DNA of 64,000 bases from Candidatus Fimimonas sp. (lineage in GTDB: Bacteria; Bacillota; Clostridia; Christensenellales; CAG-314): NCBI GenBank assembly GCA_045644945.1, contig JAZRHU010000074.1:97-64096 (forward strand), in the 5' to 3' direction. The notes beneath the pieces are model-generated. The model worked only from the letters and a program-made list of their open reading frames with translations. It made no database searches and had not been told where the DNA came from. The translations under genes and the position numbers were made by a program. Within the stretch, counting starts at the first letter, position 1. The number at the start of each line of letters is the position of its first letter. Of this stretch, positions 2 through 64,000 are shown one piece after another.

Positions 2-2320
2 CACGAATTTGAAGAAGTTGTTAACGAAGAACTCAAAGTTTCCGACGCAACTTGCACACAACCTGCTACTTACAAATTGTCCTGCGAATGTGGCGCTATT
101 AGCGACGAAACATTTGCTCACGGCGAAGCTCTTGGCCACACAGAAGTAATCGACGCAGCAGTTGAAGCAACTTGCACAGAAGCAGGTCTTACTGCTGGTA
201 AGCACTGCTCCGTTTGTGAAGCTGTTATTGTTGCTCAAGAAGTAGTTCCAGCTACTGGTCACAAATTCATTGACGGCAAGTGTGTTTGCGATCTCGAATA
301 CGCTCCACAACTTCCATGGCTCCTCACAACTGAACTCAAAGATGGCGACCACGTTCTTATTGGTGCACCTGCTTACGGCAAACTTCTTTCCGCTGAAAAA
401 GTTAATGCAACTTCCTACTACAACAAGGGTGTTAACTACTCCGCAACAGATTTTGCTAACGTAACAGATGCAGAAATCTTTGTTGTTAAAGTTAACGACG
501 ATGGTACTTACACATTTACATCCCTCACAGGTAAAGTGATTGCTCTTGCAAGCTCCTACTCCTCTCTTAACGAAACTGGCGAACACAAGTCCTGGGCTCT
601 TACATCTAGAGGCGACGGCACATTCCTCATGAAGAACACAGGCCGTAACACATACCTCGAGTGGTACAGCTCCAAGGGTAACTGGAGCACATACACCGCT
701 GGTAACACAAAGGAATACTACCTCTCCTTCTACGTTAAGAACGCAGACTACTCCGAAGAACACGTTCACAACCACATCAGCGCTGTAACAGCTCCAACTT
801 GTACAGAAGCTGGCTACACAACTTACACTTGCGCATGTGAAGACACATACACAGTTACTGGTGCAGACGCAACAGGTCACACATTCGTTAGAGGCATTTG
901 TGCTTGTGGCGAACAAGATCCTACATACGTTGACTACTACCTCATTGGTTACATCAACGGTGCCGACTACGGTAACGCTGGCGACTGGGAAAACCTTGGC
1001 GAATACAAGTTCGTTGATGGCACTCTTGTAGTAACATTTACTGCTGATAGCTACGTTGGTATCAAGTCCGCTAACCTCAAGGGCGAAATCGTTGGTTGGT
1101 TCTGGAGCAAGAACTACGAAACAAGCAACGTAGGTACATTCGAACACGGCAAAAACTACGGCGAAAAGATGTTCATTTCCGGCAACGTTCAAACAACATT
1201 TACACTTGTTGTAAACGAAGATGGTTCTCTTACTCTTTCCGTTGAATACCACAAACATAGTTACGAAACAAACGTAACTCCAGCTACTTGCACAACAGCT
1301 GGCTACACAACACACACTTGCGCTTGTGGTGATAGCTATACTGATACCCCAGTTGAAAAGCTCGGCCACATCGACGAAAACCTTGACGTAGACTGCGACA
1401 GAGAAGGTTGCACAAGCAAAATTGCTCCAAAGGCAGACAGCACACTTAGTCTTGCAACAGCAAATGCTCTTGGCGCTAAACTTAGCACATCCAACCAATA
1501 CTACGTTGAAGGTAAAATCGTTAGATACTACTCCGAAGGCGACGTTAAAAATGGTATCTTTTGGATTGCTGACGAAAACGGAACTGAACTCCTCATCAGA
1601 ATGCCTATTAACGATGCTGGTTCCACACACTCCGCTTGGGACTTTAGACTTGTAATTGGCGACACAGTAAGATTCTACGGCAAGTTGGGCAAGTTCTCCG
1701 CACAATCTGCACCTGGCGGATACTACCCTGTTATGCAAGGTGGTTTGTTTGTAGAATACATCTCCAAGCACACTTGTGACTTTACAACTACACCTGCAAC
1801 ATGCTTTAAACCTGCTTACTGCGACTGTCTTGCAAGCCAAGGCGCACCAGCTGACCACGTTGACGCTAACGCAGATAACGCTTGTGATAACTGTGGTTTG
1901 AATCCAAACTACAAACTTTCCAGCATTTCCACATGCCTAAAGGACATCAAAACAACTGATGCATACGATGCAACAGCAGGCACAGCAACATTTGTAGGGG
2001 CAGACTTTACAGCTGTTTTTGCAAAGGGCACAGCTTCTCTCAACTCAAACGGCACCGACCACATGAGATTGCAAAAAGGTAACACTTTGACAATTTCCGC
2101 TAACAACGGCAAAAAGATTTCTGCTATCACATTTACGGCATCATCTGCTTCCTATGTTGACGAAATGGAAGCAATCCTTACAGGCGCTGGCATTGCATAC
2201 GAAGTAAATGGTCTCAACATTACAATCACAGTAAACAATCTTGATTCTTTCACACTTACCAACTCCGTATCAAAGATTGCTCGTATTGCTGCGATCCACA
2301 TCGGCTACACCGAAGCTTAG
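2..2320 (+). CDS. Cys-repeat secreted/surface protein; 5' end lies upstream of the window
   Basis: Frame is open from nt 2 (HEFEEVVNEELKVSDATCTQPATYKLSCECG...), so the TTG at 77 in the ORF track is not the start. At least 5 copies of a C-T-x-x-G-x-T-x-x-x-C-x-x-C motif (TCTEAGYTTYTCACED, TCTTAGYTTHTCACGD). TAG stop is followed by a terminator. Confidence 0.7.
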   Translation, partial: HEFEEVVNEELKVSDATCTQPATYKLSCECGAISDETFAHGEALGHTEVIDAAVEATCTEAGLTAGKHCSVCEAVIVAQEVVPATGHKFIDGKCVCDLEYAPQLPWLLTTELKDGDHVLIGAPAYGKLLSAEKVNATSYYNKGVNYSATDFANVTDAEIFVVKVNDDGTYTFTSLTGKVIALASSYSSLNETGEHKSWALTSRGDGTFLMKNTGRNTYLEWYSSKGNWSTYTAGNTKEYYLSFYVKNADYSEEHVHNHISAVTAPTCTEAGYTTYTCACEDTYTVTGADATGHTFVRGICACGEQDPTYVDYYLIGYINGADYGNAGDWENLGEYKFVDGTLVVTFTADSYVGIKSANLKGEIVGWFWSKNYETSNVGTFEHGKNYGEKMFISGNVQTTFTLVVNEDGSLTLSVEYHKHSYETNVTPATCTTAGYTTHTCACGDSYTDTPVEKLGHIDENLDVDCDREGCTSKIAPKADSTLSLATANALGAKLSTSNQYYVEGKIVRYYSEGDVKNGIFWIADENGTELLIRMPINDAGSTHSAWDFRLVIGDTVRFYGKLGKFSAQSAPGGYYPVMQGGLFVEYISKHTCDFTTTPATCFKPAYCDCLASQGAPADHVDANADNACDNCGLNPNYKLSSISTCLKDIKTTDAYDATAGTATFVGADFTAVFAKGTASLNSNGTDHMRLQKGNTLTISANNGKKISAITFTASSASYVDEMEAILTGAGIAYEVNGLNITITVNNLDSFTLTNSVSKIARIAAIHIGYTEA

Positions 2321-2391
2321 TTCAACCTAGCCACAGTTGCACCACTTGATTTATCACAACATCACTTGGTTGCAAACAACTAAACAATTTT

Positions 2392-2421
2392 GGCCTAACA
2401 CAATTGTGTTGGGCCTTTTTT
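2392..2421 (+). terminator. Rho-independent terminator
   Basis: GGCCTAACAC-aatt-GTGTTGGGCC followed by TTTTTT. Confidence 0.8.
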
Positions 2422-2461
2422 GTTGGCACTGCCACATTTTTCCAAAATTTGTGCAGTTGTG

Positions 2462-2490
2462 TTGAAAATTGCACTCCGTTGTGGTATAAT
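2462..2490 (+). promoter_or_regulatory. sigma-A type promoter
   Basis: TTGAAA, 17-nt spacer, TATAAT. Confidence 0.6.
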
Positions 2491-2559
2491 GGGGCATATC
2501 GCAAGTTTGGTTTGTAGTTGATGACATCAAACGTTGCAAATGAAACAAAGGAGAACAGG

Positions 2560-3462
2560 ATGGCTTTTATCGAAACAAATCATACCGAAGTTGTTTTGCG
2601 CAAGCTAAAAAGCGACATAGACGGCTTTATGAAGTTTGTGCGCATTGCCACCATGGTGGGATTTTCCGCTTGGTATGTGTACCTGATTGCAACAAACTTT
2701 GCATCCATCCCACACTTGATTGCCTACATAGTGTTGTTTGCACTGGTACTTGTTACCTTTTTTGCCGAAAGGAGCTTCAAGCCAAAACAAAACGACAGTC
2801 GCAAAAACAAGCGCAAAAAGGTGGAAAAGCACCGCAACTTTAGCCTGACAACCAAAGTCATCAAGTACAGCGCAAAGTGCGTTACCATCGGCTTGGCATT
2901 GCACGCATCCATCACCAACCCAACATCCGAGTGGGATTTGATACTGGACATTGTGTCCGCCGTGATGCTACTTGTATCCGTTTTGAGCGAAATTGTTACC
3001 GGGTTTATCAACAGATACATCGACTACTTTAAGATTAGTGTTGCAATGGACATTGGCAACAGCGGAGTTGTAAACACCGTCAAGGACGTCATGCGGGCGT
3101 TTGGCAACAAACAAATGCAATTGGACGACATCAACAGCGAACTTGGTGGGGACGAAAGTTTGTACACCGAGCAGGAAACAAAAATCCGTCAAATGCTTGC
3201 CGACGAAGCGAAAACGCTAAAAGCACAAAAGGCGGAGCGCAAAAAGGAAAAATCCAAGTTGATTGATGAGCAACTTGCCGAAAAAAAGGCACAAAAGAGG
3301 CAAATCAAGGCGGACCAAGTTGCCGCTGCCAAGGCGGAAAAGAAACGTATCGCCGAGGAAAAACGTCAAGCCAAGCGCGCCAAGGCAGAAGCAAAACGTG
3401 CCGAGAAAAAACGCCTTGCCGAAGAAAAGCGTCAAGCAAAGAAAAACAAAAAACCACAATAA
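2560..3462 (+). CDS. Hypothetical multi-TM protein with Lys/Ala/Glu-rich repetitive C-terminal tail
   Basis: ATG at 2560 is preceded by AAAGGAG; the ORF-track start at 2518 has no SD. Hydrophobic helices, then a tail KAEKKRIAEEKRQAKRAKAEAKRAEKKRLAEEKRQAKK. Confidence 0.6.
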   Translation: MAFIETNHTEVVLRKLKSDIDGFMKFVRIATMVGFSAWYVYLIATNFASIPHLIAYIVLFALVLVTFFAERSFKPKQNDSRKNKRKKVEKHRNFSLTTKVIKYSAKCVTIGLALHASITNPTSEWDLILDIVSAVMLLVSVLSEIVTGFINRYIDYFKISVAMDIGNSGVVNTVKDVMRAFGNKQMQLDDINSELGGDESLYTEQETKIRQMLADEAKTLKAQKAERKKEKSKLIDEQLAEKKAQKRQIKADQVAAAKAEKKRIAEEKRQAKRAKAEAKRAEKKRLAEEKRQAKKNKKPQ

Positions 3463-3471
3463 GCAGTTTCG

Positions 3472-3505
3472 CCCCAGTATATTTGAGATACTGGGGTGCT
3501 TTTTT
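3472..3505 (+). terminator. Rho-independent terminator
   Basis: CCCCAGTAT-atttgag-ATACTGGGG then TGCTTTTTT. Confidence 0.8.
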
Positions 3506-3516
3506 GTTTACAATCG

Positions 3517-3545
3517 TTGAAATAATCTAAAATATGTAGTATAAT
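3517..3545 (+). promoter_or_regulatory. sigma-A type promoter
   Basis: TTGAAA, 17-nt spacer, TATAAT. Confidence 0.6.
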
Positions 3546-3662
3546 GTTGGCAAATGTGATATTTGTGAGAGTTTTTGCGCTGATGGTTGGCCTTTTAAAT
3601 TGGGAGAACTTGCATCGCACGCAAAACTTGCATCACAATGCACACTACCAAGGAGGTTTACC

Positions 3663-4841
3663 ATGGCAACAAAGAACGAACTTTTGGCGCAACTTTACGC
3701 AATCAAGGCGGGCTTGTCCATCATCTCACAAGAAAAGGACAAAATTGCTGGCGCAGAAAAAAAGTTGAATATTCTACAACAAGAAATTGATTCCCGCAAA
3801 AGCCAGATAGCAAAATGCGACCAAGAGATTGCAAGCGCTAAAAAGTCTATTGACGATGCACAAAAGCAGCCCTTGACAATGTTCGTCCAAAAACGCACTG
3901 TGGACATCAAAAAAAGCGGGTATATCATTCCATTAATGCTCATTTTCTTTTTTGGATTTATGATTTTTGTGGGTGCTCCCATCAGTATGCTTTTGGTGCC
4001 AAACGAAAACTCCACAGGTCAAGCATTGGCAGTATTTGGGATTGCATTTCTTGGAGCCTTGATTGGTGCATTGCTTGCAGGACCAATACACAAAAAGGAT
4101 GTTGCTAAAGCGCAAGCCAAAGCCGAGCAAGAGTGGCAAGATGAAGTTGCCAAAGCTCGCGCACAACACAAACAACGTAATCAAACGTTGATTGACAATG
4201 CAAACAAAATTATTGCATTCCAAACTACAACACGCACATCCTTGCAACAACAACTTGACTCTCTTACCGACAAATTCAACACACAATATGAAATCTACAC
4301 CGAACAAAAGGACCTATCCCTTGGATTGGCAAAAACTGTGTACGATGCTTTGATTGCCGAGTACGCAACTGTGCTGGACCCACGCGATTGGAAAAACATC
4401 GACTTTATCATTTTCTACTACGAAACTGGCCGTGTGGATACCCTCAAGGAAGCATTGATCCACGTGGACAAACAACGTCAAACAGACACAATTGCAAAGG
4501 CCATCAAGCAAGCCAGCGCGGAAATCAGCAGTACCATCAACACAAGCATGACAATGCTTCGTGGCGACTTGAACAGTTGCTTTGGTGCGCTTTCCACTCA
4601 GTTGGACAAATCCATGCAAATTCAATTGCAAGCACTTGAGCAAAGCAACGTTGCACTTGGAGCACTTTCCGGTAGTGTTAGTCAGCTTGGTAGCAAATTG
4701 CAAACGTCTTTGAATGCTCTTGGCAACGAGCAAGCGCTTACAAATGCGCTACTTGACAAAGTTGCCACAAGTAGTGATGCACTCGTCAACGACCTCAACT
4801 ACGTGATGGGTTACAAGGCGCCCTACTATCTCAAAAAGTAA
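3663..4841 (+). CDS. Hypothetical coiled-coil membrane protein
   Basis: ATG at 3663 is preceded by AAGGAGG. N-terminal coiled-coil, two central hydrophobic helices, long Q/L/S-rich helical C-terminus. I recognise no family. Confidence 0.6.
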   Translation: MATKNELLAQLYAIKAGLSIISQEKDKIAGAEKKLNILQQEIDSRKSQIAKCDQEIASAKKSIDDAQKQPLTMFVQKRTVDIKKSGYIIPLMLIFFFGFMIFVGAPISMLLVPNENSTGQALAVFGIAFLGALIGALLAGPIHKKDVAKAQAKAEQEWQDEVAKARAQHKQRNQTLIDNANKIIAFQTTTRTSLQQQLDSLTDKFNTQYEIYTEQKDLSLGLAKTVYDALIAEYATVLDPRDWKNIDFIIFYYETGRVDTLKEALIHVDKQRQTDTIAKAIKQASAEISSTINTSMTMLRGDLNSCFGALSTQLDKSMQIQLQALEQSNVALGALSGSVSQLGSKLQTSLNALGNEQALTNALLDKVATSSDALVNDLNYVMGYKAPYYLKK

Positions 4842-4856
4842 CACCATTGGAGAAAC

Positions 4857-5606
4857 ATGAACAAACTTGGCAAATGGCTAAAAACTGAATATATGGAAAC
4901 AAAGTTGCTTCTACGTTGCGTGCCTGCAAGCGTGGTGACGTTGTTTGTTGTAAGTGTCATTTGCATGAACATCTTGGCAAACAAAACGCTTGTGCAACTG
5001 CCTTGGATTGCGCTGGATGGTGGCATTTTGATATCTTGGCTGTCCTTTATGTGCATGGACATACTCACCAAGCACTTTGGGCCAAAGGCATCCAACCGCA
5101 TTTCCATCTTGGCGGTGATTGTAAATTTGCTCACTTGCTTGATATTCTACATTGTTAGCATCATCCCATCCAACGCCAACGACTACACCGCTTTGAACAC
5201 ACTTTTGGGCGGTACGTGGTTCATTTTGGTGGGTAGCACCATTGCTTTTGTGTGCTCCTCATTCATCAACAACGGGCTCAACTTTGTTGTGGGCAAGTGC
5301 TTCAAAAACAATCCCGATGGCAAGCTTGCATTTGCGTGCCGAAGTTACGTATCCACCTTTGTGGGACAATTTTTGGACAATTTGATTTTCTCCGTGATTG
5401 TATTCATGGGGTTTGCGCCCATCTTTTGGGACGGATTTTGTTGGACCTTTGTTCAATGCGCGATGTGCGCGTTGACAGGGGCCGTTGCGGAACTAATTTT
5501 GGAAATTGTGTTTTCGCCCATCGCATACAAAATCTCCCAAAAATGGAAAAATGACGGCGTTGGCAAGGAATACTTGGACTACATCGCCAAAGGACATCAA
5601 CAATGA
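4857..5606 (+). CDS. yhhQ: Queuosine-precursor transporter, VUT/YhhQ family
   Basis: About 6 TM helices; N-terminal pattern VPASVVTLFVVSVICMNILANK...LDGGILISWLSFMCMDILTKHFG matches my recollection of YhhQ/DUF165. SD GGAG upstream. Confidence 0.65.
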   Translation: MNKLGKWLKTEYMETKLLLRCVPASVVTLFVVSVICMNILANKTLVQLPWIALDGGILISWLSFMCMDILTKHFGPKASNRISILAVIVNLLTCLIFYIVSIIPSNANDYTALNTLLGGTWFILVGSTIAFVCSSFINNGLNFVVGKCFKNNPDGKLAFACRSYVSTFVGQFLDNLIFSVIVFMGFAPIFWDGFCWTFVQCAMCALTGAVAELILEIVFSPIAYKISQKWKNDGVGKEYLDYIAKGHQQ

Positions 5607-6256
5607 AAGTTTTAGTAACAGGTACATCTCAAGGAATTGGCAAGGCCATTGCCGAGTTATTTTTGGCAAAGGGCCACAACGTTGTGGGAATTGATAGGCA
5701 ACGTGGCACTATCGCACACGCAAACTACATCCACCACCAAGTGGACGTGCGCGACTACCAAAACTTGCCACAAGTTGACGGAGTGGAAATTCTCATCAAC
5801 AATGCCGGCACCCAAAACGAAGCGGATATCGACATCAACTTGAAAGCACTTGTGCACATCACGGAAAAATACGGTGTGCAACCAAACATCAAGTCCATAT
5901 TGAACATTGGCTCAGCAAGCGCACACACTGGTTCGGAGTTCCCCGAGTACGTTGCAAGTAAGGGTGGCGTGATGGCCTACACCAAAAACGTTGCGCAACG
6001 TGTTGCAAAATTTGGCGCAACATGCAACAGTTTGGACCCCGGTGGAGTGCTTACACCGCTGAACGATTGCGTGGTTAACGATACCGAACTTTGGGCGCAA
6101 ATCATGGACCAAACTCCATTGAAGCGCTGGGCCACCGCGGACGAAATTGCCGAGTGGGCATACTTTTTGACGGTCACAAACAAGTTTTGCACCGGCCAAA
6201 GCATTTTGGTAGACGGTGGCGAAAGCATCAACTACCACTTTGTGTGGAAGGAGTAG
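5603..6256 (+). CDS. Short-chain dehydrogenase/reductase (SDR) family oxidoreductase
   Basis: TGTSQGIGKAIA Rossmann motif, NNAG, YVASK (YxxxK). ATGA overlap with the yhhQ stop. Confidence 0.8.
   Translation: MKVLVTGTSQGIGKAIAELFLAKGHNVVGIDRQRGTIAHANYIHHQVDVRDYQNLPQVDGVEILINNAGTQNEADIDINLKALVHITEKYGVQPNIKSILNIGSASAHTGSEFPEYVASKGGVMAYTKNVAQRVAKFGATCNSLDPGGVLTPLNDCVVNDTELWAQIMDQTPLKRWATADEIAEWAYFLTVTNKFCTGQSILVDGGESINYHFVWKE
6222..6246. repeat. Direct repeat A1 (25 nt), 3' end of the SDR gene
   Basis: aaagcatcaactaccactttgtgtg, identical to 6764-6788. Confidence 0.95.
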
Positions 6257-6259
6257 ACT

Positions 6260-6730
6260 ATGGATGAAAATAACAAAGGTACTGTTGTTGCGGTAAAATA
6301 CTTAGCGCCTGAGCTGTACATTAGTTTGTTTTTTTCCCTTTTAGTAACATTTATGTCTAGTGTGGCGTTCTACCTAGAACCCGAGCGAATTTTATTACTC
6401 GTGTTAGGATTAGCATTCTCTCTTGGAGTCATTATTACATTGCTCAAAATGATAGAGTATTGGATACGACCAACTGCCGTAATAAAGGACTTTGGCGATA
6501 GATTTACTGTTTACTACGCATTGGGAAAAACAAGAACTTTTAGATATGACGAAGTTCAGGAGTTTGTTGCTATAAAATTTACTAGAGACAATGAAGCAGG
6601 TGTAAAGCATGGTGCTTTAGTTTTCAAATCATATGGTAGGACATACAGAACCGGAGTGATTAAATATGTGGACACTGTCCGAATGATACTAAACGGCAAA
6701 CGCCCCTACTACCCAAAACAACAATTATAG
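6260..6730 (+). CDS. Orphan 2-TM protein with small soluble C-terminal domain (cassette X)
   Basis: SD GAAGGAG is created at the repeat junction. AT-rich, with many TTA/ATA/CTA codons that are rarer in neighbouring genes. Two hydrophobic helices, then a beta-rich domain (possibly bacterial PH-like, weak). Confidence 0.55.
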   Translation: MDENNKGTVVAVKYLAPELYISLFFSLLVTFMSSVAFYLEPERILLLVLGLAFSLGVIITLLKMIEYWIRPTAVIKDFGDRFTVYYALGKTRTFRYDEVQEFVAIKFTRDNEAGVKHGALVFKSYGRTYRTGVIKYVDTVRMILNGKRPYYPKQQL

Positions 6731-6735
6731 TTTAT

Positions 6736-6755
6736 AATAAGAAATGCGTGACGAA
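6736..6755. repeat. Direct repeat B1 (20 nt), left half of a terminator hairpin
   Basis: aataagaaatgcgtgacgaa, identical to 7700-7719. Confidence 0.95.
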
Positions 6756-6763
6756 ATGTCACA

Positions 6764-6788
6764 AAAGCATCAACTACCACTTTGTGTG
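6764..6788. repeat. Direct repeat A2 (25 nt), orphaned copy of the SDR 3' end
   Basis: Identical to 6222-6246; here it reads ...agc atc aac tac cac ttt gtg TGA. Confidence 0.95.
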
Positions 6789-6828
6789 AAAAAGCAGGCA
6801 ATTGGGCATAATTTTAGTTTGAGAAAGT

Positions 6829-7686
6829 ATGAAAAACTGGAAATTTAGAACAATTTTTATATTGGTAATTATACTTGGCGTTGTACTACAATTTTTGCGT
6901 TTGTGGTTGAGCGATGCTAAGTGGCTATCATACATTGGCTCGCCCCTAATGTGCGTGGGTATTGTTTTGTTGGTAAGTTCCTTTAGTTACGGAAAGGGCA
7001 CAAAAATTGTCAACGCTAACAAAGTACCACCAATAGCACCAAGAACTGACGAGGAAGTATTTATAGACAATCACAAGTACTGCGATTTGCAAGATTTTGA
7101 AAAGTGCTTGAAACTTTTTTACTCTCCTGATAGCAAAAGTAGGTTGGTTATCTATCAACCAAGTGATGGTCGTGTACTGGCAAGATTGCAAGTGCTTGAA
7201 ACATACGATTGTGACATCACAGCTAATATTATTCACTGTGCACATTGGCGAACCATTGCTGGCAAAGATAGTCACTACGCTGATGTTGACACCGCTTTGA
7301 AAGACTACGAAAACGAGTTGAACAAAGGGTACGAAGCGGAAAGAGTGGATGAGCTTGCGCCCTATGTTTGGGACGGCCATCAAGAGTATATTGCAGAAAT
7401 AACTTGGCTAACAGAGGCACAAGGGGGACGGAAAAACATTCCATCTGGAAGCAGGTACTGGCCACAAGTGATAGTGATTGGATCGAATAGTGATATACCA
7501 CAATACAGCATCATATTGAGAAACATTGCGGGTATCTCAAAGTACAAAACTAATGCATTTGTAAAATACGCCTTTCCTGGTGCACCTAACGATTTGCGCG
7601 AAAACGTAAAATTTTACGTATGCGAAGGAAATCGAAAAGTGGCTAAAGGTATCATCAAATGCAAAAGAGAAAATATTGATGTTTAG
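6829..7686 (+). CDS. Orphan 2-TM protein with EF-Tu domain-III-like C-terminus (cassette Y)
   Basis: N-terminal hydrophobic helices. C-terminal AEITWLTEAQGGRKNIPSGSRYWPQV...FYVCEGNRKVAKGIIKCK parallels EF-Tu domain III [26 protein letters not shown]...[18 protein letters not shown] as I recall it. AT-rich codon usage. Confidence 0.55.
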   Translation: MKNWKFRTIFILVIILGVVLQFLRLWLSDAKWLSYIGSPLMCVGIVLLVSSFSYGKGTKIVNANKVPPIAPRTDEEVFIDNHKYCDLQDFEKCLKLFYSPDSKSRLVIYQPSDGRVLARLQVLETYDCDITANIIHCAHWRTIAGKDSHYADVDTALKDYENELNKGYEAERVDELAPYVWDGHQEYIAEITWLTEAQGGRKNIPSGSRYWPQVIVIGSNSDIPQYSIILRNIAGISKYKTNAFVKYAFPGAPNDLRENVKFYVCEGNRKVAKGIIKCKRENIDV

Positions 7687-9356: not shown

Positions 9357-10151
9357 TTTCTTGTCGGCAATGGTAAGTTTGTAGATGTCGTTTTTGGGAA
9401 CGTTGCGGTCCTTTGCTACTGCCTTGATGGCATCTTTTTGCGACATGCCACCCTTGATGTAGTAATCGAGGTGCTCTTGCACGGATAGCTCGCACAAGGC
9501 GTTTGTTTGGTTTTCCGCACGGTTTACAACAAGCACAAACTCGCCCTTGGTGTCGTCGATGACGTCGCTAAGATGGCAAAAACGCACACGTTCGTGGGAC
9601 TTGGAAAGTTCCTTTACAAGACAGCACTCGCGGTCGCCAAGGCGCTCGCAAAGGTAGGCCATGTTTTCTTGGATGTCGTGCACGGCCAAGTAGAAAATGG
9701 CAACGCCAACGGAGCCATCCAAAAGTTTTTCGCGGTCCTTCTTTTTTTCCGGCAAAAAGCCGTAGTAGGTAAAGGGTGGTTGGTAGCCGGAAAGCACAAA
9801 GGCGTTTACAAATGCGCTTGGGCCGGAAATAACTGTGTAAGGCAGGTTACGCTCCTTGAGTGCATTTACCAAAATGTTACCGGGGTCGTTGATACCTGGC
9901 ATGCCTGCATCGGAAATTAGCGCAATATCATCGCCACGCTCGGCAAAGGACAACACAAAATCCAAACTCATTTTTTCGTTGAATTTGTGGTAACTATACA
10001 GCGGTTTGCCTGTGATGCCGTAGTGGGAAAGTAGCACTTGCGAGTGGCGTGTGTCTTCGCAAAAGATTGCGGAAACGTTTTTTAGTGTTTCCACCGCGCG
10101 GTGTGTGATTTCCGCAAGATTTCCAATGGGTGTTGCAACAAGATATACCAT
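9354..10151 (-). CDS. rsmI: 16S rRNA (cytidine1402-2'-O)-methyltransferase
   Basis: MVYLVATPIGNLAEITHRAVETLKNVSAIFCEDTRHSQVLL is the tetrapyrrole-methylase-fold RsmI N-terminus. Confidence 0.9.
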   Translation of the reverse strand: MVYLVATPIGNLAEITHRAVETLKNVSAIFCEDTRHSQVLLSHYGITGKPLYSYHKFNEKMSLDFVLSFAERGDDIALISDAGMPGINDPGNILVNALKERNLPYTVISGPSAFVNAFVLSGYQPPFTYYGFLPEKKKDREKLLDGSVGVAIFYLAVHDIQENMAYLCERLGDRECCLVKELSKSHERVRFCHLSDVIDDTKGEFVLVVNRAENQTNALCELSVQEHLDYYIKGGMSQKDAIKAVAKDRNVPKNDIYKLTIADKK

Positions 10152-10944: not shown

Positions 10945-11256
10945 TTAGAACCATCCACCTGTCAAAGAATAAGTCCAATAGAAAAAGATAAAATCTATTG
11001 CTAACAAAATAATGTTTGTCAGCAAGCAAACAAGCACGTTTTTAGTTTTTTTGTAGCCAACTATCCACGAAACAACTGTGAGATATATGGGCGAGATCCA
11101 TAACGAAGAACGACCAATAACCAAAGCGAAAAGAAATACCATCATCATCGATTCGTCAGCTAGCGACATAAAAGTGAAAAATGTTAATAAAACTGACCAC
11201 AATGGCAAAGCAAAAAATACTAAGGTTTTGATAAGTCCTTTTATTTTTGTCTTCAT
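10945..11256 (-). CDS. Small hypothetical membrane protein (3 TM)
   Basis: AT-rich with ATA/TTA codons; stop lies 3 nt before the next ATG. Confidence 0.5.
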   Translation of the reverse strand: MKTKIKGLIKTLVFFALPLWSVLLTFFTFMSLADESMMMVFLFALVIGRSSLWISPIYLTVVSWIVGYKKTKNVLVCLLTNIILLAIDFIFFYWTYSLTGGWF

Positions 11257-11289
11257 AGTTGGAGATTCCTTTTGTAAGTAGATATTTAA

Positions 11290-11775
11290 CTAGTCCACCA
11301 CAATAACCTTTTTGCCGATGGAAGTGAGGTATTTTTTGAAGTCGTCCAAGGTTAGCACTACTGTTGCGGTGTTATCGCAAGGGTGAAACTTGACGCGGTT
11401 GGCATTCCAAACACTTTCGTCAATGAGCAAAGGCGCCGAGTAGGTTGCCGTATCCTCGTTGAGATAGGCAAAGGGGGAAACGCTACCGCGGTGCACACCA
11501 AGGTCATTGAGTAGTTTTTCCTCGGTGGCGAACTCGAATTTGGCACATCCCACAAAGCTTGCAAGGTGGCGCATTTCCGCACGTTTGTCGAAAGGCAACA
11601 CCACAAGGTAAAAGTTGTCGCTCTTTTTGTCCTTGACGTACAAGCTTTTGCAAGACATGCAGTTGTCTACGTGTATCACTTGGCGAGATTCCTCGGTGGT
11701 TACCACCGCTTGATGGCGCAGTAGCTCGTAGGCCACGCCTATTGAGTTGAGATAGTTGGTTACTTTGGTTATCAT
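11290..11775 (-). CDS. YbaK/ProX-type aminoacyl-tRNA editing domain protein
   Basis: Size about 160 aa; motifs CKSLYVKDKK...LVVLP...GSVSPF...FHPCDNTATV are typical of the YbaK/EbsC family. Confidence 0.65.
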   Translation of the reverse strand: MITKVTNYLNSIGVAYELLRHQAVVTTEESRQVIHVDNCMSCKSLYVKDKKSDNFYLVVLPFDKRAEMRHLASFVGCAKFEFATEEKLLNDLGVHRGSVSPFAYLNEDTATYSAPLLIDESVWNANRVKFHPCDNTATVVLTLDDFKKYLTSIGKKVIVVD

Positions 11776-12027: not shown

Positions 12028-12729
12028 CTAACTGCACAAATAATTCATCACACCGCTAAAAATAAGGTTGCAAAGGGTTTCGCGGTAGGTGTCCGTTTTG
12101 AGCTGTGCAAGGTCGTTTGCGTTGGAGAAAAATCCGCACTCCACAATGACGCTTGGGCAGGGCATTTCGCGACACATGTAGTAGTCGCCTGCGATTGCCT
12201 CGTGCTTGTTGCCTGTGTGGTTGTTGAAGGTTTGTTGCAAAGCTTTGGCAAGCTTTTCCCCTTCGGTTGCGCCCTTTTGGTAAAACACTTGTGGGCCACT
12301 GCGCGAAAGTTGTCCTGCAAATTGGTTCATGTGGATGCTAATCACGATGTTGGCATTGCAACCTTCCACCACCTTTTTGCGCGCTTGCATATCGCGGAGC
12401 TTGAAACCCTTGGTGGCAAGTCCGTAGAGCCCATCCTTGTTGGTGCGAGTGTACACCACGTTGAAACCACTGTCTGTTAGCATTTTGCCTAGCGTTTTGG
12501 CGTACTTCAAGTTAAGGTCGCTCTCCTTGGTGCCATCTGGCGCCACCTTGCCACCATCCATACCGCCATGGCCTGCATCAATAACAATTGTGTAGTCCAC
12601 CAGCGAAACGTCTTTTGAAAGTTGTCGCATACACAAAAAGAACACAAGCCCCGCTTGCAATGCCAAAATTAGCAACAAAACCGCCACAATACGGCTAGAT
12701 TTTACCGAAAACACCATAGTTTGCTCCAT
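12028..12729 (-). CDS. cwlD: Germination-specific N-acetylmuramoyl-L-alanine amidase
   Basis: N-terminal TM, IDAGHGGMDGG, ISIHMN, VIVECGFFSN: Amidase_3/CwlD pattern. Confidence 0.8.
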   Translation of the reverse strand: MEQTMVFSVKSSRIVAVLLLILALQAGLVFFLCMRQLSKDVSLVDYTIVIDAGHGGMDGGKVAPDGTKESDLNLKYAKTLGKMLTDSGFNVVYTRTNKDGLYGLATKGFKLRDMQARKKVVEGCNANIVISIHMNQFAGQLSRSGPQVFYQKGATEGEKLAKALQQTFNNHTGNKHEAIAGDYYMCREMPCPSVIVECGFFSNANDLAQLKTDTYRETLCNLIFSGVMNYLCS

Positions 12730-12819
12730 CTAAACTCCAAATGCAAAAGGGGCCTTTTGTAGCACCTTTATGACATGTTGGTGCGATTTTCGACACTTTT
12801 CGTGCAAAAATGCGCAAAG

Positions 12820-12883
12820 TTATACACTTATCCACAAAGTTATCCACAGTTATCCACAATTTAGGTGGACAACCTGTTCCACA
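12820..12883 (+). promoter_or_regulatory. DnaA-box cluster
   Basis: Three perfect TTATCCACA boxes at 12828-12836, 12840-12848 and 12850-12858. Three 2-mismatch boxes at 12820-12828, 12865-12873 (inverted) and 12875-12883. Confidence 0.75.
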
Positions 12884-13141
12884 AAGGTGTGAAACTGCAA
12901 CATTTGTTCTACATTGATAATGTATGCTTGTCTTTTTTGCAAAAGCACAAAGTTTTGCCAATGGTTTGTCGCAAAAAACGTAAAAATATGTCGCTATTTG
13001 TGTAATAGTAAAAAATACTTTTGAACGCTCCTATGTGTAAAATAGGTGCAAAAATGTTTGAGTTTTGGTGTCAAAACAAGGTGTAAAAAATCCATCAATT
13101 GGCAAAACTCATCTCAAAACCAAAAACAAGGAGCAAAAAAT

Positions 13142-14383
13142 ATGAGTTTTAATCCATTTAAGGAGCAACCACTAAAAAGCGCCAACGATTTTTACAGTTG
13201 GAAACAACTAGCATTGAAGCCCTACAACAAGTTTGACGTCGATCCCTACACACGCGTTCGCATCATTTTGGCAGCGGGTGCCGAGTTCGAGGCAGTTTGG
13301 TTTGGACATCAGTTCCACCGCCATTGCGACAACAACGACCTAAGGCGCGAGCTTGCCATAACCAGACGTCACGAACAGCAACAACAAAAGCGCATTGCCA
13401 GCTTGAAACCCATTGGCGAAGGCATCTTGGAGCACACCATTGGCTACGAGCAACTTGCCGTTGACCTTACCGCCATCTTTGCCCAACGCGAAAGCGACAA
13501 GTACGTGAAAATGGCAATGGACTTTGCGCTTTTGGAGGACTTCGACCATCTGTACAGATATGCCGACCTTTTGGAAATGGACAAGGGCATTGTTGCGGAA
13601 AAGCTTGTTGGTGGCTACACCGAGCTTATGCCTGGTCGCCCAACCATTGCCGAGCACCGCTTCCCAACTGACGACATCAAGCGGTACGTCAACTTTAAAA
13701 AGGCAAACAGCCTCACCAAGTTGGACATCAACATTTTGACGGCTGCCGAGCAACAAACAATGAACTACTACATGAACCAAGCCAACTTTTACCAAAACAA
13801 GATGGGCCGTCAACTTTACACAGAAATTGCCATGATCGAGGAGCAACACGTTTCCCTTTACGGCGGACTTAAAGACCCAAATTGCACCTGGCTAGAGGAA
13901 AACTTGATGCACGAGTACACCGAGTGCTACTTGTACTACAGTTTGTGGCAAGACGAAACCGACCCACTTGTAAAAAAGGTGTGGGAGCAACACTTCAATG
14001 ACGAACTATCCCACTTGCACAAGGCGGTGGAACTGCTCAACAAGTACGAAAACAAAGTGTGGGAGCAAGTCATTCCCAAGGGCGAGTTCCCCGAGCTACT
14101 CAAGTTCCGTTCCAACATCGACTACGTTCGCGAAGTGCTCAAAAACACAGTCAACCTTACCGGCGCTAGGGAAGACTACACGCCAGTTAGCGAAGTGGCA
14201 AACGACAGCAAATTTTTTGAATATCAAAGCCAAGTTAACGTCAAAGACTCAGACGTTGCTAGCCATTGCGTAATCACAAAGTACATTGCCGACAACAACC
14301 GCGACTACCGCTTTGAAACTGCCGAGCACCCCGTTGTGGAACTGCGCGACCGCAAGGTAGACAACACAACTGTGGGTAGATAG
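13142..14383 (+). CDS. Ferritin-like (di-iron four-helix-bundle) superfamily protein, function unknown
   Basis: ATG at 13142 after AAGGAG. Several ExxH/E...H motifs (EFEAVWFGHQFH, EEQH, DELSHLH). Confidence 0.45.
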   Translation: MSFNPFKEQPLKSANDFYSWKQLALKPYNKFDVDPYTRVRIILAAGAEFEAVWFGHQFHRHCDNNDLRRELAITRRHEQQQQKRIASLKPIGEGILEHTIGYEQLAVDLTAIFAQRESDKYVKMAMDFALLEDFDHLYRYADLLEMDKGIVAEKLVGGYTELMPGRPTIAEHRFPTDDIKRYVNFKKANSLTKLDINILTAAEQQTMNYYMNQANFYQNKMGRQLYTEIAMIEEQHVSLYGGLKDPNCTWLEENLMHEYTECYLYYSLWQDETDPLVKKVWEQHFNDELSHLHKAVELLNKYENKVWEQVIPKGEFPELLKFRSNIDYVREVLKNTVNLTGAREDYTPVSEVANDSKFFEYQSQVNVKDSDVASHCVITKYIADNNRDYRFETAEHPVVELRDRKVDNTTVGR

Positions 14384-48544: not shown

Positions 48545-48559
48545 AGGTGTACAACTTAA

Positions 48560-48720
48560 TTGATAGAGGTTGCGATTTTTATGACAAGCTCAAGCAGTCA
48601 GGAATTTGTTTGAGTGGTAAAGGAAAAGTCGCCGAAGGTTGTTGCTTGAACCTGAAAGAGCAACTGCCTGGGACTACGTAGAACATGCGTAGGACTGTCG
48701 CTAAACGCGGAGAGCTATCG
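48560..48720 (+). promoter_or_regulatory. Lysine riboswitch (L-box)
   Basis: gATAGAGGttGCGA ... GGTAAAGGaaaaGTCGCCGAAGG ... CTGGG ... gGACTGTCgc ... GGAGAGCTATCg; P1 pairs GATAG with CTATC. Matches my recollection of the L-box core. Confidence 0.8.
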
Positions 48721-48738
48721 CACTTGTTTTGGTTACAA

Positions 48739-63207: not shown

Positions 63208-63333
63208 TGTTGTCCTCCGACATAATTTTACTGTGCCTTGACGGCATATTTCTACAGTATAGTATTTTAGCACAGTTGTACAAAAAAATCAAGACTTTTT
63301 GTCAATATGTTCATTTTTGTAAAAAGAAATAAT

Positions 63334-63400
63334 AAAAAACACCCAATGACGGCCCCTTACGGCTCTGCCCATTGAGTGAAAACTTAAGTTTTTTTATCCT
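63334..63400 (-). ncRNA. Candidate small RNA unit R1
   Basis: Minus strand TTGCAA-17-TATACT (63435-63407). A-rich 5' part, then hairpin CACUCAAUG...CAUUGGGUG (63378-63340), followed directly by U6. Confidence 0.45.
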
Positions 63401-63452
63401 AGTGTTAGTATATACTATTGTTTCCAAAATTGCAACAGTTTTGGATAAAAAG

Positions 63453-63563
63453 AAAAAAAGCCCACAAACATTGTTTGTGGGGTGCCTTTTCTGTGCACAG
63501 ATGGCGTCATTATTTGCGATTACGGAAGTGCACTCCTAGTACATAAATGTACACGCTCTATGT
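63453..63563 (-). ncRNA. Candidate small RNA unit S3 (about 110 nt)
   Basis: Minus strand TTGCAA-17-TATAAT (63598-63570). Internal GUACAU/AUGUAC and GUGCAC/GUGCAC pairings. Terminator CCCACAAACaatGTTTGTGGG plus U7 (63482-63453). Confidence 0.45.
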
Positions 63564-63619
63564 GTATGTATTATACTCAACTTTAATAAAATTTGCAATA
63601 GTTTTGGATAAAATTGCAC

Positions 63620-63704
63620 AAAAAAAGAAATGACGGGCTTCGAGCCTACCTTTAATCACTTACCACTCAACCGCTTGTAGCAGGAGCGAACGGAATCATT
63701 TCTT
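63620..63704 (-). ncRNA. Candidate small RNA unit S2 (about 85 nt)
   Basis: Minus strand TTGACA-17-TACAAT (63739-63711). The 5' AAGAAAUGA pairs with the 3' UCAUUUCUU to close the whole molecule, followed by U7. Confidence 0.5.
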
Positions 63705-63780
63705 GTTTAGATTGTATCAAATTGTGGATAGGTTGTCAATTATATAAATCAAATAACTGCCCATTTCCAACGTTTGACAT

Positions 63781-63838
63781 AAAAAAGAGCCCACCCCGAC
63801 GGCACAAATTGTCCACAGGGTCCACATCGGCTCTTGTA
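63781..63838 (-). ncRNA. Candidate small RNA unit S1 (about 58 nt)
   Basis: Long hairpin AGAGCCGAUG...CGUCGGggtGGGCUCU followed by U6. Only a weak promoter (TTAATA-17-TAATAT). Confidence 0.3.
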
Positions 63839-63922
63839 AGAATTATATTAGCAAATGTTTGCAATTTTATTAATGGTTTTCATAAAAATAACCTACTACT
63901 GCGACAAGGTACCTAGTAAAAT

Positions 63923-63990
63923 AAAAAAAACACTCAATGACGGCCCCTTACGGCTCTGCCCATTGAGTGAAAACTTAATTTTTTTTGCTT
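63923..63990 (-). ncRNA. Candidate small RNA unit R2 (second copy of R1; promoter truncated by window edge)
   Basis: Near-identical to R1. Hairpin 63969-63931 followed by U8. The sequence equivalent to the R1 -10 region starts at about 63997. Confidence 0.4.
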
Positions 63991-64000
63991 GATGTTAGTA

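What the first reader, a model, noticed from the sequence alone, without database searches (positions are those of the whole stretch)
12820..12883. Three perfect tandem DnaA boxes, plus three imperfect ones, far from any dnaA gene
TTATCCACA occurs three times in the same orientation within 31 bp (12828-12836, 12840-12848, 12850-12858; spacings of 12 and 10 bp). These are flanked by three 2-mismatch boxes and followed by an AT-rich stretch (about 12960-13045). The cluster sits in the divergent region between cwlD and a ferritin-like gene. Clusters like this occur at oriC and at a handful of secondary DnaA-box clusters in Bacillus, where they titrate DnaA or regulate sporulation/replication checkpoint genes. 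The neighbourhood is sporulation-related (cwlD).
Basis: partly seen in the sequence, partly recalled or inferred. Interest (0 to 1): 0.55.

Follow-up and report, generated by a model that had tools for sequence, protein, structure and literature searches.

The report
Conserved DnaA-box array upstream of amidase gene
A tight cluster of binding sites for the replication initiator DnaA sits, conserved across many related uncultured gut Clostridia, just upstream of a CwlD-like cell-wall amidase gene, so it most likely ties that gene's expression to replication status and is not a replication origin.

Summary
Three perfect TTATCCACA boxes lie at 12828, 12840 and 12850, and they are the only perfect boxes in the 64-kb window. 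Three 2-mismatch boxes flank them.

The cluster is the core of a roughly 80-bp module that is conserved while the rest of the intergenic DNA is randomised. Read towards the amidase gene, the module is: split palindrome GTTTCAY-N6-8-RTGAAACA, 2 nt, TTGTCCACA, 14-16 nt, TGTGGATAA, CTT, TGTGGATAA, GTGYAYAAC. I found 29 distinct full versions.

The module always lies upstream of, and in one orientation to, a CwlD-like amidase operon. Its other neighbour varies: a divergent ferritin-like gene, hsp20, recR, or an M20 peptidase gene.

There is no dnaA in the window. About 80% of the coding DNA to the right of the cluster is on the minus strand, and no DnaA-trio or conserved unwinding element is present. 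An origin is therefore unlikely.

The best reading is a secondary DnaA-box cluster acting as the upstream operator of the amidase operon and, in this lineage, also of the divergent ferritin-like gene. DnaA titration is a possible by-product.

DnaA binding and the direction of regulation are untested. This is a new member of a known kind and is moderately interesting. The split parS-like palindrome is the unexplained part.

The parts
12819..12828 (+). Amidase-proximal degenerate DnaA box. It reads GTTATACAC/TTATACACT on the + strand and GTGTATAAC towards the amidase. It overlaps box 1 by one base.
   Evidence: It has 2 mismatches to TTATCCACA, or 1 mismatch to TTATNCACA. It is conserved as GTGYAYAAC in all 29 distinct module versions, although those positions were fixed by the search pattern. 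The column is also conserved in the free alignment.
12828..12836 (+). Perfect DnaA box 1 (TTATCCACA).
   Evidence: It is conserved in relatives as TTATCCACA or TTTTCCACA.
12840..12848 (+). Perfect DnaA box 2 (TTATCCACA), 3 nt from box 1.
   Evidence: It is essentially invariant in all relatives that carry the module.
12850..12858 (+). Perfect DnaA box 3. It is lineage-specific and fills what is a 14-16-nt spacer of variable sequence in most relatives.
   Evidence: It is present in the window, L001, L002, L003 and L100, in degenerate form in L011, and as TGTGGATAAT in L013 and L014. It is replaced by unrelated sequence elsewhere.
12864..12872 (-). Inverted DnaA box (TTGTCCACC on the minus strand; TTGTCCACA in most relatives). 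It faces the direct boxes.
   Evidence: In one search this 9-mer was left unconstrained by the search pattern, yet 7 of its 9 positions are invariant across 29 distinct versions. G at position 3 occurs in 26 of 29.
12875..12896 (.). Split palindrome TGTTCCAC-AAAGGT-GTGAAACT. Its two 8-nt arms equal the two halves of the parS consensus TGTTNCACGTGAAACA, but they are separated by 6 nt (7 nt in most relatives).
   Evidence: In 1.04 Mb of related DNA, every copy of the palindrome with a 6-8-nt spacer lies inside this module (23 of 23). The arms are conserved and the spacer sequence is free. There is no contiguous parS in the window.
12767..12795 (-). Putative amidase-operon promoter (inferred). 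The -35-like hexamer TGTCGA is at 12790-12795 (reverse complement), followed by a 17-nt spacer and an extended -10, TGt-CATAAA, at 12767-12775 (reverse complement). TGTCGAA is also a Spo0A-box-like heptamer.
   Evidence: This comes from reading. A TTGTCA/TGTCGA/TTGGCA-type hexamer recurs 20-23 or 31-33 bp after the last box in most versions. Some relatives have strong sigma-A-type promoters there, for example L010 with TTGACC-18-TGcTATAAT. [quoted passage not shown]
12896..12923 (+). Putative promoter of the divergent ferritin-like gene (inferred). The -35 hexamer TGCAAC (GGACAA in relatives) abuts the palindrome arm, followed by a 16-nt spacer and the -10 hexamer TAATGT.
   Evidence: The pattern arm-GGACAA/TGCAAC-N16-TAnnnTA-TG is conserved only in loci where the ferritin-like gene is the divergent neighbour. 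It is absent where hsp20, recR or the M20 peptidase gene flanks the module.
12028..12717 (-). CwlD-like N-acetylmuramoyl-L-alanine amidase with an N-terminal membrane segment. It is the gene the module travels with.
   Evidence: Pfam Amidase_3, E = 1.8e-40. The best NCBIfam hit is TIGR02883 CwlD, at 159 bits against a cut-off of 221.55. It lies directly downstream of the module in the relatives, and in 24 of the 27 metagenome stretches that carry the 30-nt core.
10945..11775 (-). Genes downstream of the amidase on the same strand: a small membrane protein (10945-11256) and a YbaK/tRNA-editing-domain protein (11290-11775). They are probably the rest of the operon.
   Evidence: The order amidase, small ORF, tRNA_edit gene is kept in L081-L085 and L088 and in the metagenome loci.
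13142..14383 (+). Divergent 413-aa ferritin-like protein of unknown function. It is a possible second target of the module in this lineage.
   Evidence: No Pfam family was found, and the EncFtn-like hits are weak. It is 59-97% identical across 80 species-level genomes.

Best explanation
The cluster is a secondary (non-origin) DnaA-box array that serves as the conserved upstream operator of a CwlD-like amidase operon.

Proposed mechanism: DnaA, most probably in its ATP form, binds the two or three consensus boxes as anchors. It then spreads cooperatively to the flanking weaker boxes. These are the proximal GTGYAYAAC, the facing TTGTCCACA, and possibly the two palindrome arms, each of which is a 2-3-mismatch box.

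In the window the array lies about 24 bp upstream of a weak -35-like element of the amidase promoter. That places it at roughly -59 to -135 from the predicted transcription start. In this lineage it also abuts the -35 of the divergent ferritin-like gene. Occupancy by DnaA would therefore make transcription of the operon depend on replication-initiation status.

The boxes sit upstream of a promoter with a poor -35, as at B. subtilis sda. I therefore lean towards activation, but repression is not excluded. As a by-product, the array would also sequester some DnaA.

Shown here: the sequence, its conservation, its fixed linkage and orientation to the amidase gene, and the absence of origin features.

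Inferred: DnaA binding, the promoter positions, and the sign of regulation.
For: 1. There are three perfect boxes within 31 bp, and they are the only perfect boxes in 64 kb.
2. All 15 species-level relatives whose ferritin-like protein is at least 75% identical keep at least 2 perfect boxes at the same place. In these relatives the amidase is only 54-91% identical, and the rest of the intergenic region does not align.
3. In 845 kb of related loci, 40 of the 48 perfect boxes fall in these clusters.
4. The whole module has 29 distinct versions with tightly constrained spacer lengths (7 nt and 14-16 nt) and free spacer sequence.
5. The module keeps the same orientation and sits directly upstream of the amidase in four different contexts:
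   - a divergent ferritin-like gene (window clade, L081-84);
   - the hsp20 3' end (L016, L024, L088, L098);
   - the recR 3' end (L085);
   - an M20 peptidase gene (L110).
   Of the 27 metagenome stretches with the 30-nt core, 24 have the amidase next to it.
6. A -35-like hexamer recurs 20-23 or 31-33 bp after the last box, which is one helical turn apart. Clear sigma-A-type promoters occur there in some relatives.
7. The same 30-nt three-box core recurs upstream of recG and leuS in unrelated contigs. This fits a generic DnaA-binding unit reused at promoters.
8. There is precedent. B. subtilis has six DnaA-box clusters outside oriC. DnaA activates sda and represses dnaA, ywlC and yydA, and such clusters lie upstream of different genes in different species (PMC3245932).
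Against: - No binding or expression data exist. These organisms are known only from metagenomes.
- The amidase promoter is weak and was predicted by eye and by a simple scan. The tool's own scan found none on that strand.
- The distance from the module to the start codon varies from about 60 to 200 nt.
- G at position 3 of the facing box is conserved (26 of 29), and so are the palindrome arms. A pure DnaA model explains neither well, so a second protein may be involved.
- In L028, L029, L048 and L049, DnaA-box clusters lie between parB/parS and the ferritin-like gene with no amidase nearby. Linkage to the amidase is therefore not universal.
- Two amidase relatives (L086, L087) lack the module.
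- It is not obvious why a spore-cortex-type amidase should respond to DnaA.
Confidence: 0.6

Rival explanations
1. The array is mainly a DnaA sink or modulator, comparable to the B. subtilis DnaA-box clusters or E. coli datA/DARS. Its selected function would be to titrate or remodel DnaA and so tune replication initiation. Any effect on the neighbouring genes would be secondary.
For: The array has high-affinity consensus boxes in a tight cluster with convergent orientation. In B. subtilis such clusters restrain initiation as well as regulating neighbouring genes, and they interact genetically with Spo0J/Soj (PMC3245932). The module carries parS half-sites, and in outgroups box clusters sit next to true parS sites and parB. 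In L085 the module follows dnaX-ybaB-recR, genes that are origin-proximal in B. subtilis (the B. subtilis gene positions are from my own knowledge).
Against: A pure sink would not need a fixed orientation and immediate adjacency to one particular gene through four different rearrangements. With 3-6 boxes it is a small sink. The distance to oriC is unknown. The window's gene set (dnaK operon, era-recO, tig-clpPX) is not an origin-proximal set in B. subtilis (the B. subtilis gene positions are from my own knowledge). This reading does not exclude the best explanation.
Confidence: 0.2
2. The module is bound by DnaA together with a second protein, or mainly by that second protein. Candidates are a ParB-like protein recognising the split parS half-sites, or Spo0A or a mother-cell regulator acting at the TGTCGAA and GGACAA-like motifs. 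In this reading the DnaA boxes are only part of a composite developmental switch.
For: Both palindrome arms are exact parS half-sites. They are conserved with a 6-8-nt spacer of free sequence, and this arrangement occurs only in the module. The facing box keeps a non-consensus G. TGTCGAA is the Spo0A-box consensus (from my own knowledge), and a TGTCGA-type hexamer is found at a fixed phase after the boxes. In B. subtilis, cwlD is sigma-E-dependent and repressed by SpoIIID (PMC517825).
Against: A ParB dimer is not expected to bridge half-sites moved 6-8 bp apart (established knowledge of ParB-parS; not tested here). The GGACAA motif distal to the palindrome behaves as the -35 of the ferritin-like gene promoter and is absent where that gene is not the neighbour. 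The perfect 9-of-9 DnaA consensus, repeated two or three times, is the strongest signal in the module.
Confidence: 0.12
3. The cluster is the chromosomal replication origin, or a second origin, that has become separated from dnaA.
For: There are several consensus boxes in convergent arrays, a moderately AT-rich stretch about 100 bp away, and divergent flanking genes. Some bacteria do have an oriC far from dnaA; in E. coli it is about 42 kb away (PMC3245932).
Against: - There is no dnaA or dnaN within -12.8 kb or +51 kb of the cluster, nor within 6-10 kb of it in any relative.
- About 80% of coding bases to the right of the cluster are on the minus strand, so those genes would run head-on to a fork leaving this site.
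- There is no repeated DnaA-trio next to the boxes, and the AT-rich stretch is not conserved (reading).
- The flanks of the module differ between lineages while its orientation to the amidase is fixed.
Confidence: 0.03

Closest known systems
Bacillus subtilis DnaA-box clusters outside oriC (yqeG-sda, ywlC-ywlB, yydA-yycS, ywcI-vpr, gcp-ydiF, thdF-jag; PMC3245932)
   Same: Both are tight clusters of consensus DnaA boxes in an intergenic or promoter region away from dnaA. In B. subtilis they lie upstream of different genes in different species. They are known to regulate the downstream gene (sda up; ywlC and yydA down) and to damp initiation.
   Different: The target gene, a CwlD-like amidase operon, is not among the known targets; a literature search for DnaA with cwlD found nothing relevant. 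The architecture here is fixed, with a facing box and a split parS-like palindrome. Binding, regulation and distance to oriC are all untested.
E. coli datA and DARS1/2 (DnaA-box clusters that inactivate or reactivate DnaA)
   Same: Both consist of a few high-affinity boxes in a defined arrangement outside oriC, some in opposed orientation.
   Different: datA and DARS act with IHF/Fis and are not tied to one promoter. No such cofactor sites were looked for here, and the firm linkage to one gene argues for a cis-regulatory role. This comparison rests on my own knowledge and the introduction of PMC3245932.
Firmicute oriC (box clusters flanking dnaA, with DnaA-trios and an AT-rich unwinding element)
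   Same: Both have tandem consensus boxes with short spacing, and AT-rich DNA lies nearby.
   Different: There is no adjacent dnaA or dnaN, no trio repeat, no conserved unwinding element and no switch in gene-strand bias.
parS (ParB/Spo0J centromere site, TGTTNCACGTGAAACA)
   Same: The two arms of the module's palindrome are exact parS halves. True contiguous parS pairs lie next to DnaA-box clusters upstream of the ferritin-like gene in outgroup genomes.
   Different: The halves are separated by 6-8 bp in every module copy. There is no contiguous parS in the window, and no parB lies next to the module.

Membership tests
Secondary DnaA-box cluster / DnaA-regulated promoter | At least three boxes matching TTATCCACA (0-1 mismatch) within about 100 bp, well above chance | tested here: met
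   There are three perfect boxes within 31 bp, plus three 2-mismatch boxes. They are the only perfect boxes in 64 kb.
Secondary DnaA-box cluster / DnaA-regulated promoter | Boxes under purifying selection in relatives | tested here: met
   At least 2 perfect boxes are kept in all 15 close species-level relatives. There are 29 distinct module versions with free spacer sequence.
Secondary DnaA-box cluster / DnaA-regulated promoter | Fixed position relative to a promoter or gene | tested here: met
   The module has the same orientation and lies directly upstream of the amidase in four genomic contexts, and in 24 of 27 metagenome stretches. A -35-like hexamer follows at a fixed helical phase.
Secondary DnaA-box cluster / DnaA-regulated promoter | DnaA occupancy in vivo or in vitro, and an effect on transcription or on initiation | not testable with these tools
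   This needs EMSA/footprinting, ChIP-seq, and reporter or deletion experiments.
Secondary DnaA-box cluster / DnaA-regulated promoter | Origin-proximal location (true of most, not all, B. subtilis clusters) | tested here: inconclusive
   dnaA is more than 12.8 kb to the left or more than 51 kb to the right. I could not locate dnaA in any relative's contig with the tools available.
Chromosomal origin oriC | Adjacent dnaA/dnaN (typical of Firmicutes) | tested here: not met
   tblastn, the signature-motif search and Pfam scans of the window ORFs found none, and none lies within 6-10 kb in 115 related loci.
Chromosomal origin oriC | Switch of gene-strand bias and of GC skew at the site | tested here: not met
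   31 of 41 called ORFs, about 80% of coding bases, to the right of the cluster are on the minus strand. An origin would predict plus. GC skew at fourfold sites shows no replication signal at all, so that part is uninformative.
Chromosomal origin oriC | Conserved AT-rich unwinding element and DnaA-trio repeats next to the boxes | tested here: not met
   No 3-nt repeat lies beside the boxes. The 71% A+T stretch at 12960-13045 is not conserved in the alignment. This was checked by inspection only.
parS centromere site | Contiguous 16-bp palindrome TGTTNCACGTGAAACA | tested here: not met
   No match with 3 or fewer mismatches exists in the window. The half-sites are present but split by 6-8 bp in all module copies.
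CwlD (spore-cortex amidase), for the linked gene | Score above the TIGR02883 equivalog cut-off | tested here: inconclusive
   CwlD is the best NCBIfam hit (1.3e-46, 159 bits) but falls below the 221.55-bit cut-off. The sporulation genes yqfC/yqfD are present in the window. Module-less relatives carry a sigma-K/E-like CATACAYTA just before the start codon.

The most novel reading that the evidence does not exclude
The module may be a composite landing pad for DnaA and a ParB-type protein. In this reading a parS site has been deliberately split by 6-8 bp and fused, 2 bp away, to convergent DnaA boxes. The module would then report replication-initiation or chromosome-segregation status directly to a spore-cortex/cell-wall amidase operon. 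It would be a clostridial counterpart of the Sda-type replication-to-sporulation checkpoint, in organisms that lack Sda.
Probability: 0.1. Interest if true: 0.7.

Novelty: new member of a known kind. Interest (0 to 1): 0.42.

Why it matters
DnaA's role as a transcription factor has been mapped in only a few model bacteria, and hardly at all in Clostridia. This locus is a clean, phylogenetically footprinted candidate DnaA target in an uncultured gut lineage.

It suggests that a cell-wall or spore-cortex amidase operon, and in this lineage a widespread ferritin-like protein of unknown function, is wired to replication status. It also supplies a compact, recurrent three-box unit (TGTGGATAA-CTT-TGTGGATAA-GTGYATAAC) that could be used to search for DnaA regulons in metagenomes.

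The split parS-like palindrome raises a concrete, testable question about cross-talk between DnaA and ParB-type recognition.

If DnaA turns out not to bind, the finding is simply a conserved promoter element. In either case it is not a new origin.

Tried and rejected
- **GC skew.** Both whole-sequence skew and fourfold-site skew are dominated by coding-strand composition. They show no replication signal.
- **dif site.** I looked for a dif site at the convergent point near 7.7 kb. There is none, only a bidirectional terminator.
- **Small ORFs and RNAs in the intergenic region.** Only short, non-conserved ORFs are present. There is no Rfam family or tRNA there.
- **Locating dnaA in relatives.** Exact look-up of the window's ferritin-like protein failed. 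Look-ups of relatives return at most ±10 kb of flank and show no dnaA.
- **SpoIIID site.** I first read the conserved GGACAAG distal to the palindrome as a SpoIIID site. I rejected this because the motif behaves as the -35 of the ferritin-like gene promoter and disappears where that gene is not the neighbour.
- **Homology with the parB-parS-box clusters of L028/L029.** The arrangement looks similar by eye, but the alignment is not convincing, so this is left open.
- **Sporulation-sigma promoters.** By inspection I found no consistent match to sigma-F, -G, -E or -K consensus sequences after the module.
- **Ferritin-like protein.** A profile search against PDB found nothing significant. The AlphaFold model is too poor (pLDDT 54.6) to justify a fold search.
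- **Literature.** A search for DnaA with cwlD returned nothing relevant. The 'dnaA' hits were matches to 'DNAase'.

Full report
**The observation.** TTATCCACA occurs exactly three times in the 64-kb window, at 12828, 12840 and 12850 on the + strand. A uniform model expects about 0.5 copies per window. Boxes with two mismatches lie at 12820-12828 (+), 12864-12872 (-) and 12875-12883 (+). The AT-rich stretch at 12960-13045 is real but modest: it is 70.9% A+T, in the top 3.3% of windows of that size.

The cluster sits in a 412-bp (12730-13141) divergent intergenic region.
- To the left is an Amidase_3 gene (12028-12717, minus strand). Its best NCBIfam match is CwlD, but at 159 bits it is below the 221.55-bit cut-off.
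- To the right is a 413-aa protein with no Pfam family and only faint encapsulated-ferritin-like matches.

**The organism and the wider window.** Homologues of both flanking proteins come from uncultured gut Clostridia. Some carry the misleading NCBI names 'Corallococcus sp.' or 'Candidatus Fimimonas'. The window encodes the following:
- rsmI and a TrmN-like methyltransferase;
- the run yqfC, yqfD, phoH, a 7TM-HD protein, ybeY, era and recO;
- hrcA-grpE-dnaK-dnaJ;
- rho;
- clpX, clpP and tig.

This is ordinary firmicute chromosome with sporulation genes. No ORF is DnaA.

**Conservation.** I anchored on the ferritin-like protein and fetched 80 species-level loci. All 15 loci with at least 75% protein identity keep at least two perfect boxes at the same place. 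Most loci at 59-66% identity have none. Across 845 kb of these loci, 40 of the 48 perfect boxes lie in such clusters.

Alignment of the intergenic regions shows an island of about 80 bp of near-invariant sequence inside otherwise unalignable DNA. Read towards the amidase, the island is:

GTTTCAY-N6-8-RTGAAACA, NN, TTGTCCACA, N14-16, TGTGGATAA, CTT, TGTGGATAA, GTGYAYAAC

There are 29 distinct full versions. The facing box TTGTCCACA was not constrained in that search, yet it is invariant at 7 of 9 positions. The window's third perfect box is a lineage-specific addition inside the N14-16 spacer.

**Which gene the module belongs to.** In the window's clade the amidase is always the divergent neighbour. 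Other lineages have a different upstream neighbour:

| Loci | Upstream neighbour of the module |
|---|---|
| L016, L024, L088, L098 | 3' end of hsp20 |
| L085 | recR (order dnaX-ybaB-recR-module-amidase-ybaK) |
| L110 group | M20 peptidase gene |

In all of these the same module lies in the same orientation directly upstream of the amidase.

A metagenome scan with the 30-nt core found 27 stretches. The amidase is immediately downstream in 24 of them. The other three (L096, L106 near leuS, L109 upstream of recG) are unrelated contexts that lack the palindrome. This suggests that the three-box core is a generic DnaA-binding unit that has been reused.

Two more distant amidase relatives (L086, L087) lack the module. 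Instead they have CATACAYTA, a sigma-K/E-like -10, just before the start codon.

**Promoters (inferred).** After the last box, a TTGTCA/TGTCGA/TTGGCA-type hexamer recurs at +20-23 or +31-33, one helical turn apart. Some relatives have clear sigma-A-type promoters there, for example TTGACC-18-TGcTATAAT in L010.

In the window the best candidate is TGTCGA, 17 nt, TGtCATAAA (12795-12767, minus strand). That would place the boxes at about -59 to -135.

On the other side, the arrangement arm-GGACAA/TGCAAC-N16-TAnnnTA is conserved only where the ferritin-like gene is the divergent neighbour. In this lineage the module is therefore flanked by two divergent promoters. The tool's own consensus scan did not call either promoter.

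**Not an origin.** Four lines of evidence argue against oriC:
- dnaA is absent from the window.
- Gene-strand bias does not switch at the cluster. About 80% of coding bases from 13 to 64 kb are on the minus strand, and so are the genes immediately to the left.
- There is no trio repeat beside the boxes, and the AT-rich stretch is not conserved.
- The module's flanks change between lineages while its orientation to the amidase does not.

GC skew cannot contribute, because fourfold-site skew is identical for genes on both strands.

**The palindrome.** Its arms are exact halves of the parS consensus but are always 6-8 bp apart. In 1.04 Mb of related DNA this split form occurs only inside the module (23 of 23).

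Contiguous parS pairs occur between parB and the ferritin-like gene in L028, L029 and L042, and near-consensus parS pairs (GTTTCACGTGACAC) lie there in L048. DnaA-box clusters accompany them in L028, L029, L048 and L049. The resemblance suggests shared ancestry, but the alignment does not establish it.

Each arm is also a 2-3-mismatch DnaA box, so DnaA alone could account for the palindrome. The conservation of the arms and of a non-consensus G in the facing box still leaves room for a second protein.

**Verdict.** This is a secondary DnaA-box cluster of the kind known from B. subtilis. There, DnaA activates sda and represses dnaA, ywlC and yydA, and the clusters also restrain initiation (PMC3245932). 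Here the cluster is attached to a target not previously described, a CwlD-like amidase operon, with a fixed composite architecture.

Binding, the sign of regulation and any titration effect remain to be tested. I rate it a new member of a known kind and of moderate interest.

Noticed in passing
window 63280-64000: The roughly 0.7-kb non-coding stretch to the right of tig holds a 69-nt repeat at 63327-63395 and 63918-63986 (93% identical). It is a hairpin flanked by an A-run and a T-run and looks like a bidirectional terminator. There is also a 25-nt repeat, AAAWTTGCAAYAGTTTTGGATAAAA, at 63426 and 63589. Several 1-mismatch DnaA boxes lie there too (63440, 63603, 63723, 63809). The stretch could hold small RNA genes or a second, weaker DnaA-box region.
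   Followed up: partly
window 13142-14383; L028, L029, L042, L048, L049: The 413-aa ferritin-like protein has no Pfam family yet is 59-97% identical across 80 species-level Clostridia genomes. In several outgroups it lies directly downstream of parB and two parS (or near-consensus parS) sites. The AlphaFold model is all-helical but of low confidence (pLDDT 54.6).
   Followed up: partly
L109 about 9450-9572; L106 5872-5901; L096 1782-1811: The exact 30-nt three-box core TGTGGATAACTNTGTGGATAAGTGYATAAC also occurs in unrelated metagenome contigs. It lies upstream of recG in L109, between leuS and a def-priA cluster in L106, and in an unannotated fragment in L096. A match of this length is far too long to be chance, so the unit may be a recurrent DnaA-binding arrangement.
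   Followed up: partly
L086 about 5975-6000; L087 about 2755-2780: Amidase relatives that lack the DnaA-box module carry AAAAGCATACAYTAAA a few bases before the start codon. This is a sigma-K/E-like -10 (CATAnnnTA). It hints that the ancestral gene was sporulation-controlled and that the module-bearing lineages rewired it.
   Followed up: no
window 48556-48725: There is a lysine riboswitch (Rfam RF00168, 85 bits) upstream of an amino-acid ABC transporter (SBP_bac_3 and a permease).
   Followed up: no
window 77-7686: A block of seven +-strand genes converges on the minus-strand genes at about 7.7 kb, where there is a bidirectional terminator. Five of the seven have no Pfam family (747, 314, 413, 156 and 285 aa). 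The block may be an accessory island. No dif site was found at the junction.
   Followed up: partly
relatives of the window (P0002, P0039, P0068): Public records name these organisms Corallococcus sp. or Candidatus Fimimonas, and NCBI taxonomy files them under Myxococcaceae. Their gene content (yqfCD, a CwlD-like amidase, the hrcA-grpE-dnaK-dnaJ order) and other record titles indicate Clostridia. This looks like an inherited misclassification.
   Followed up: partly
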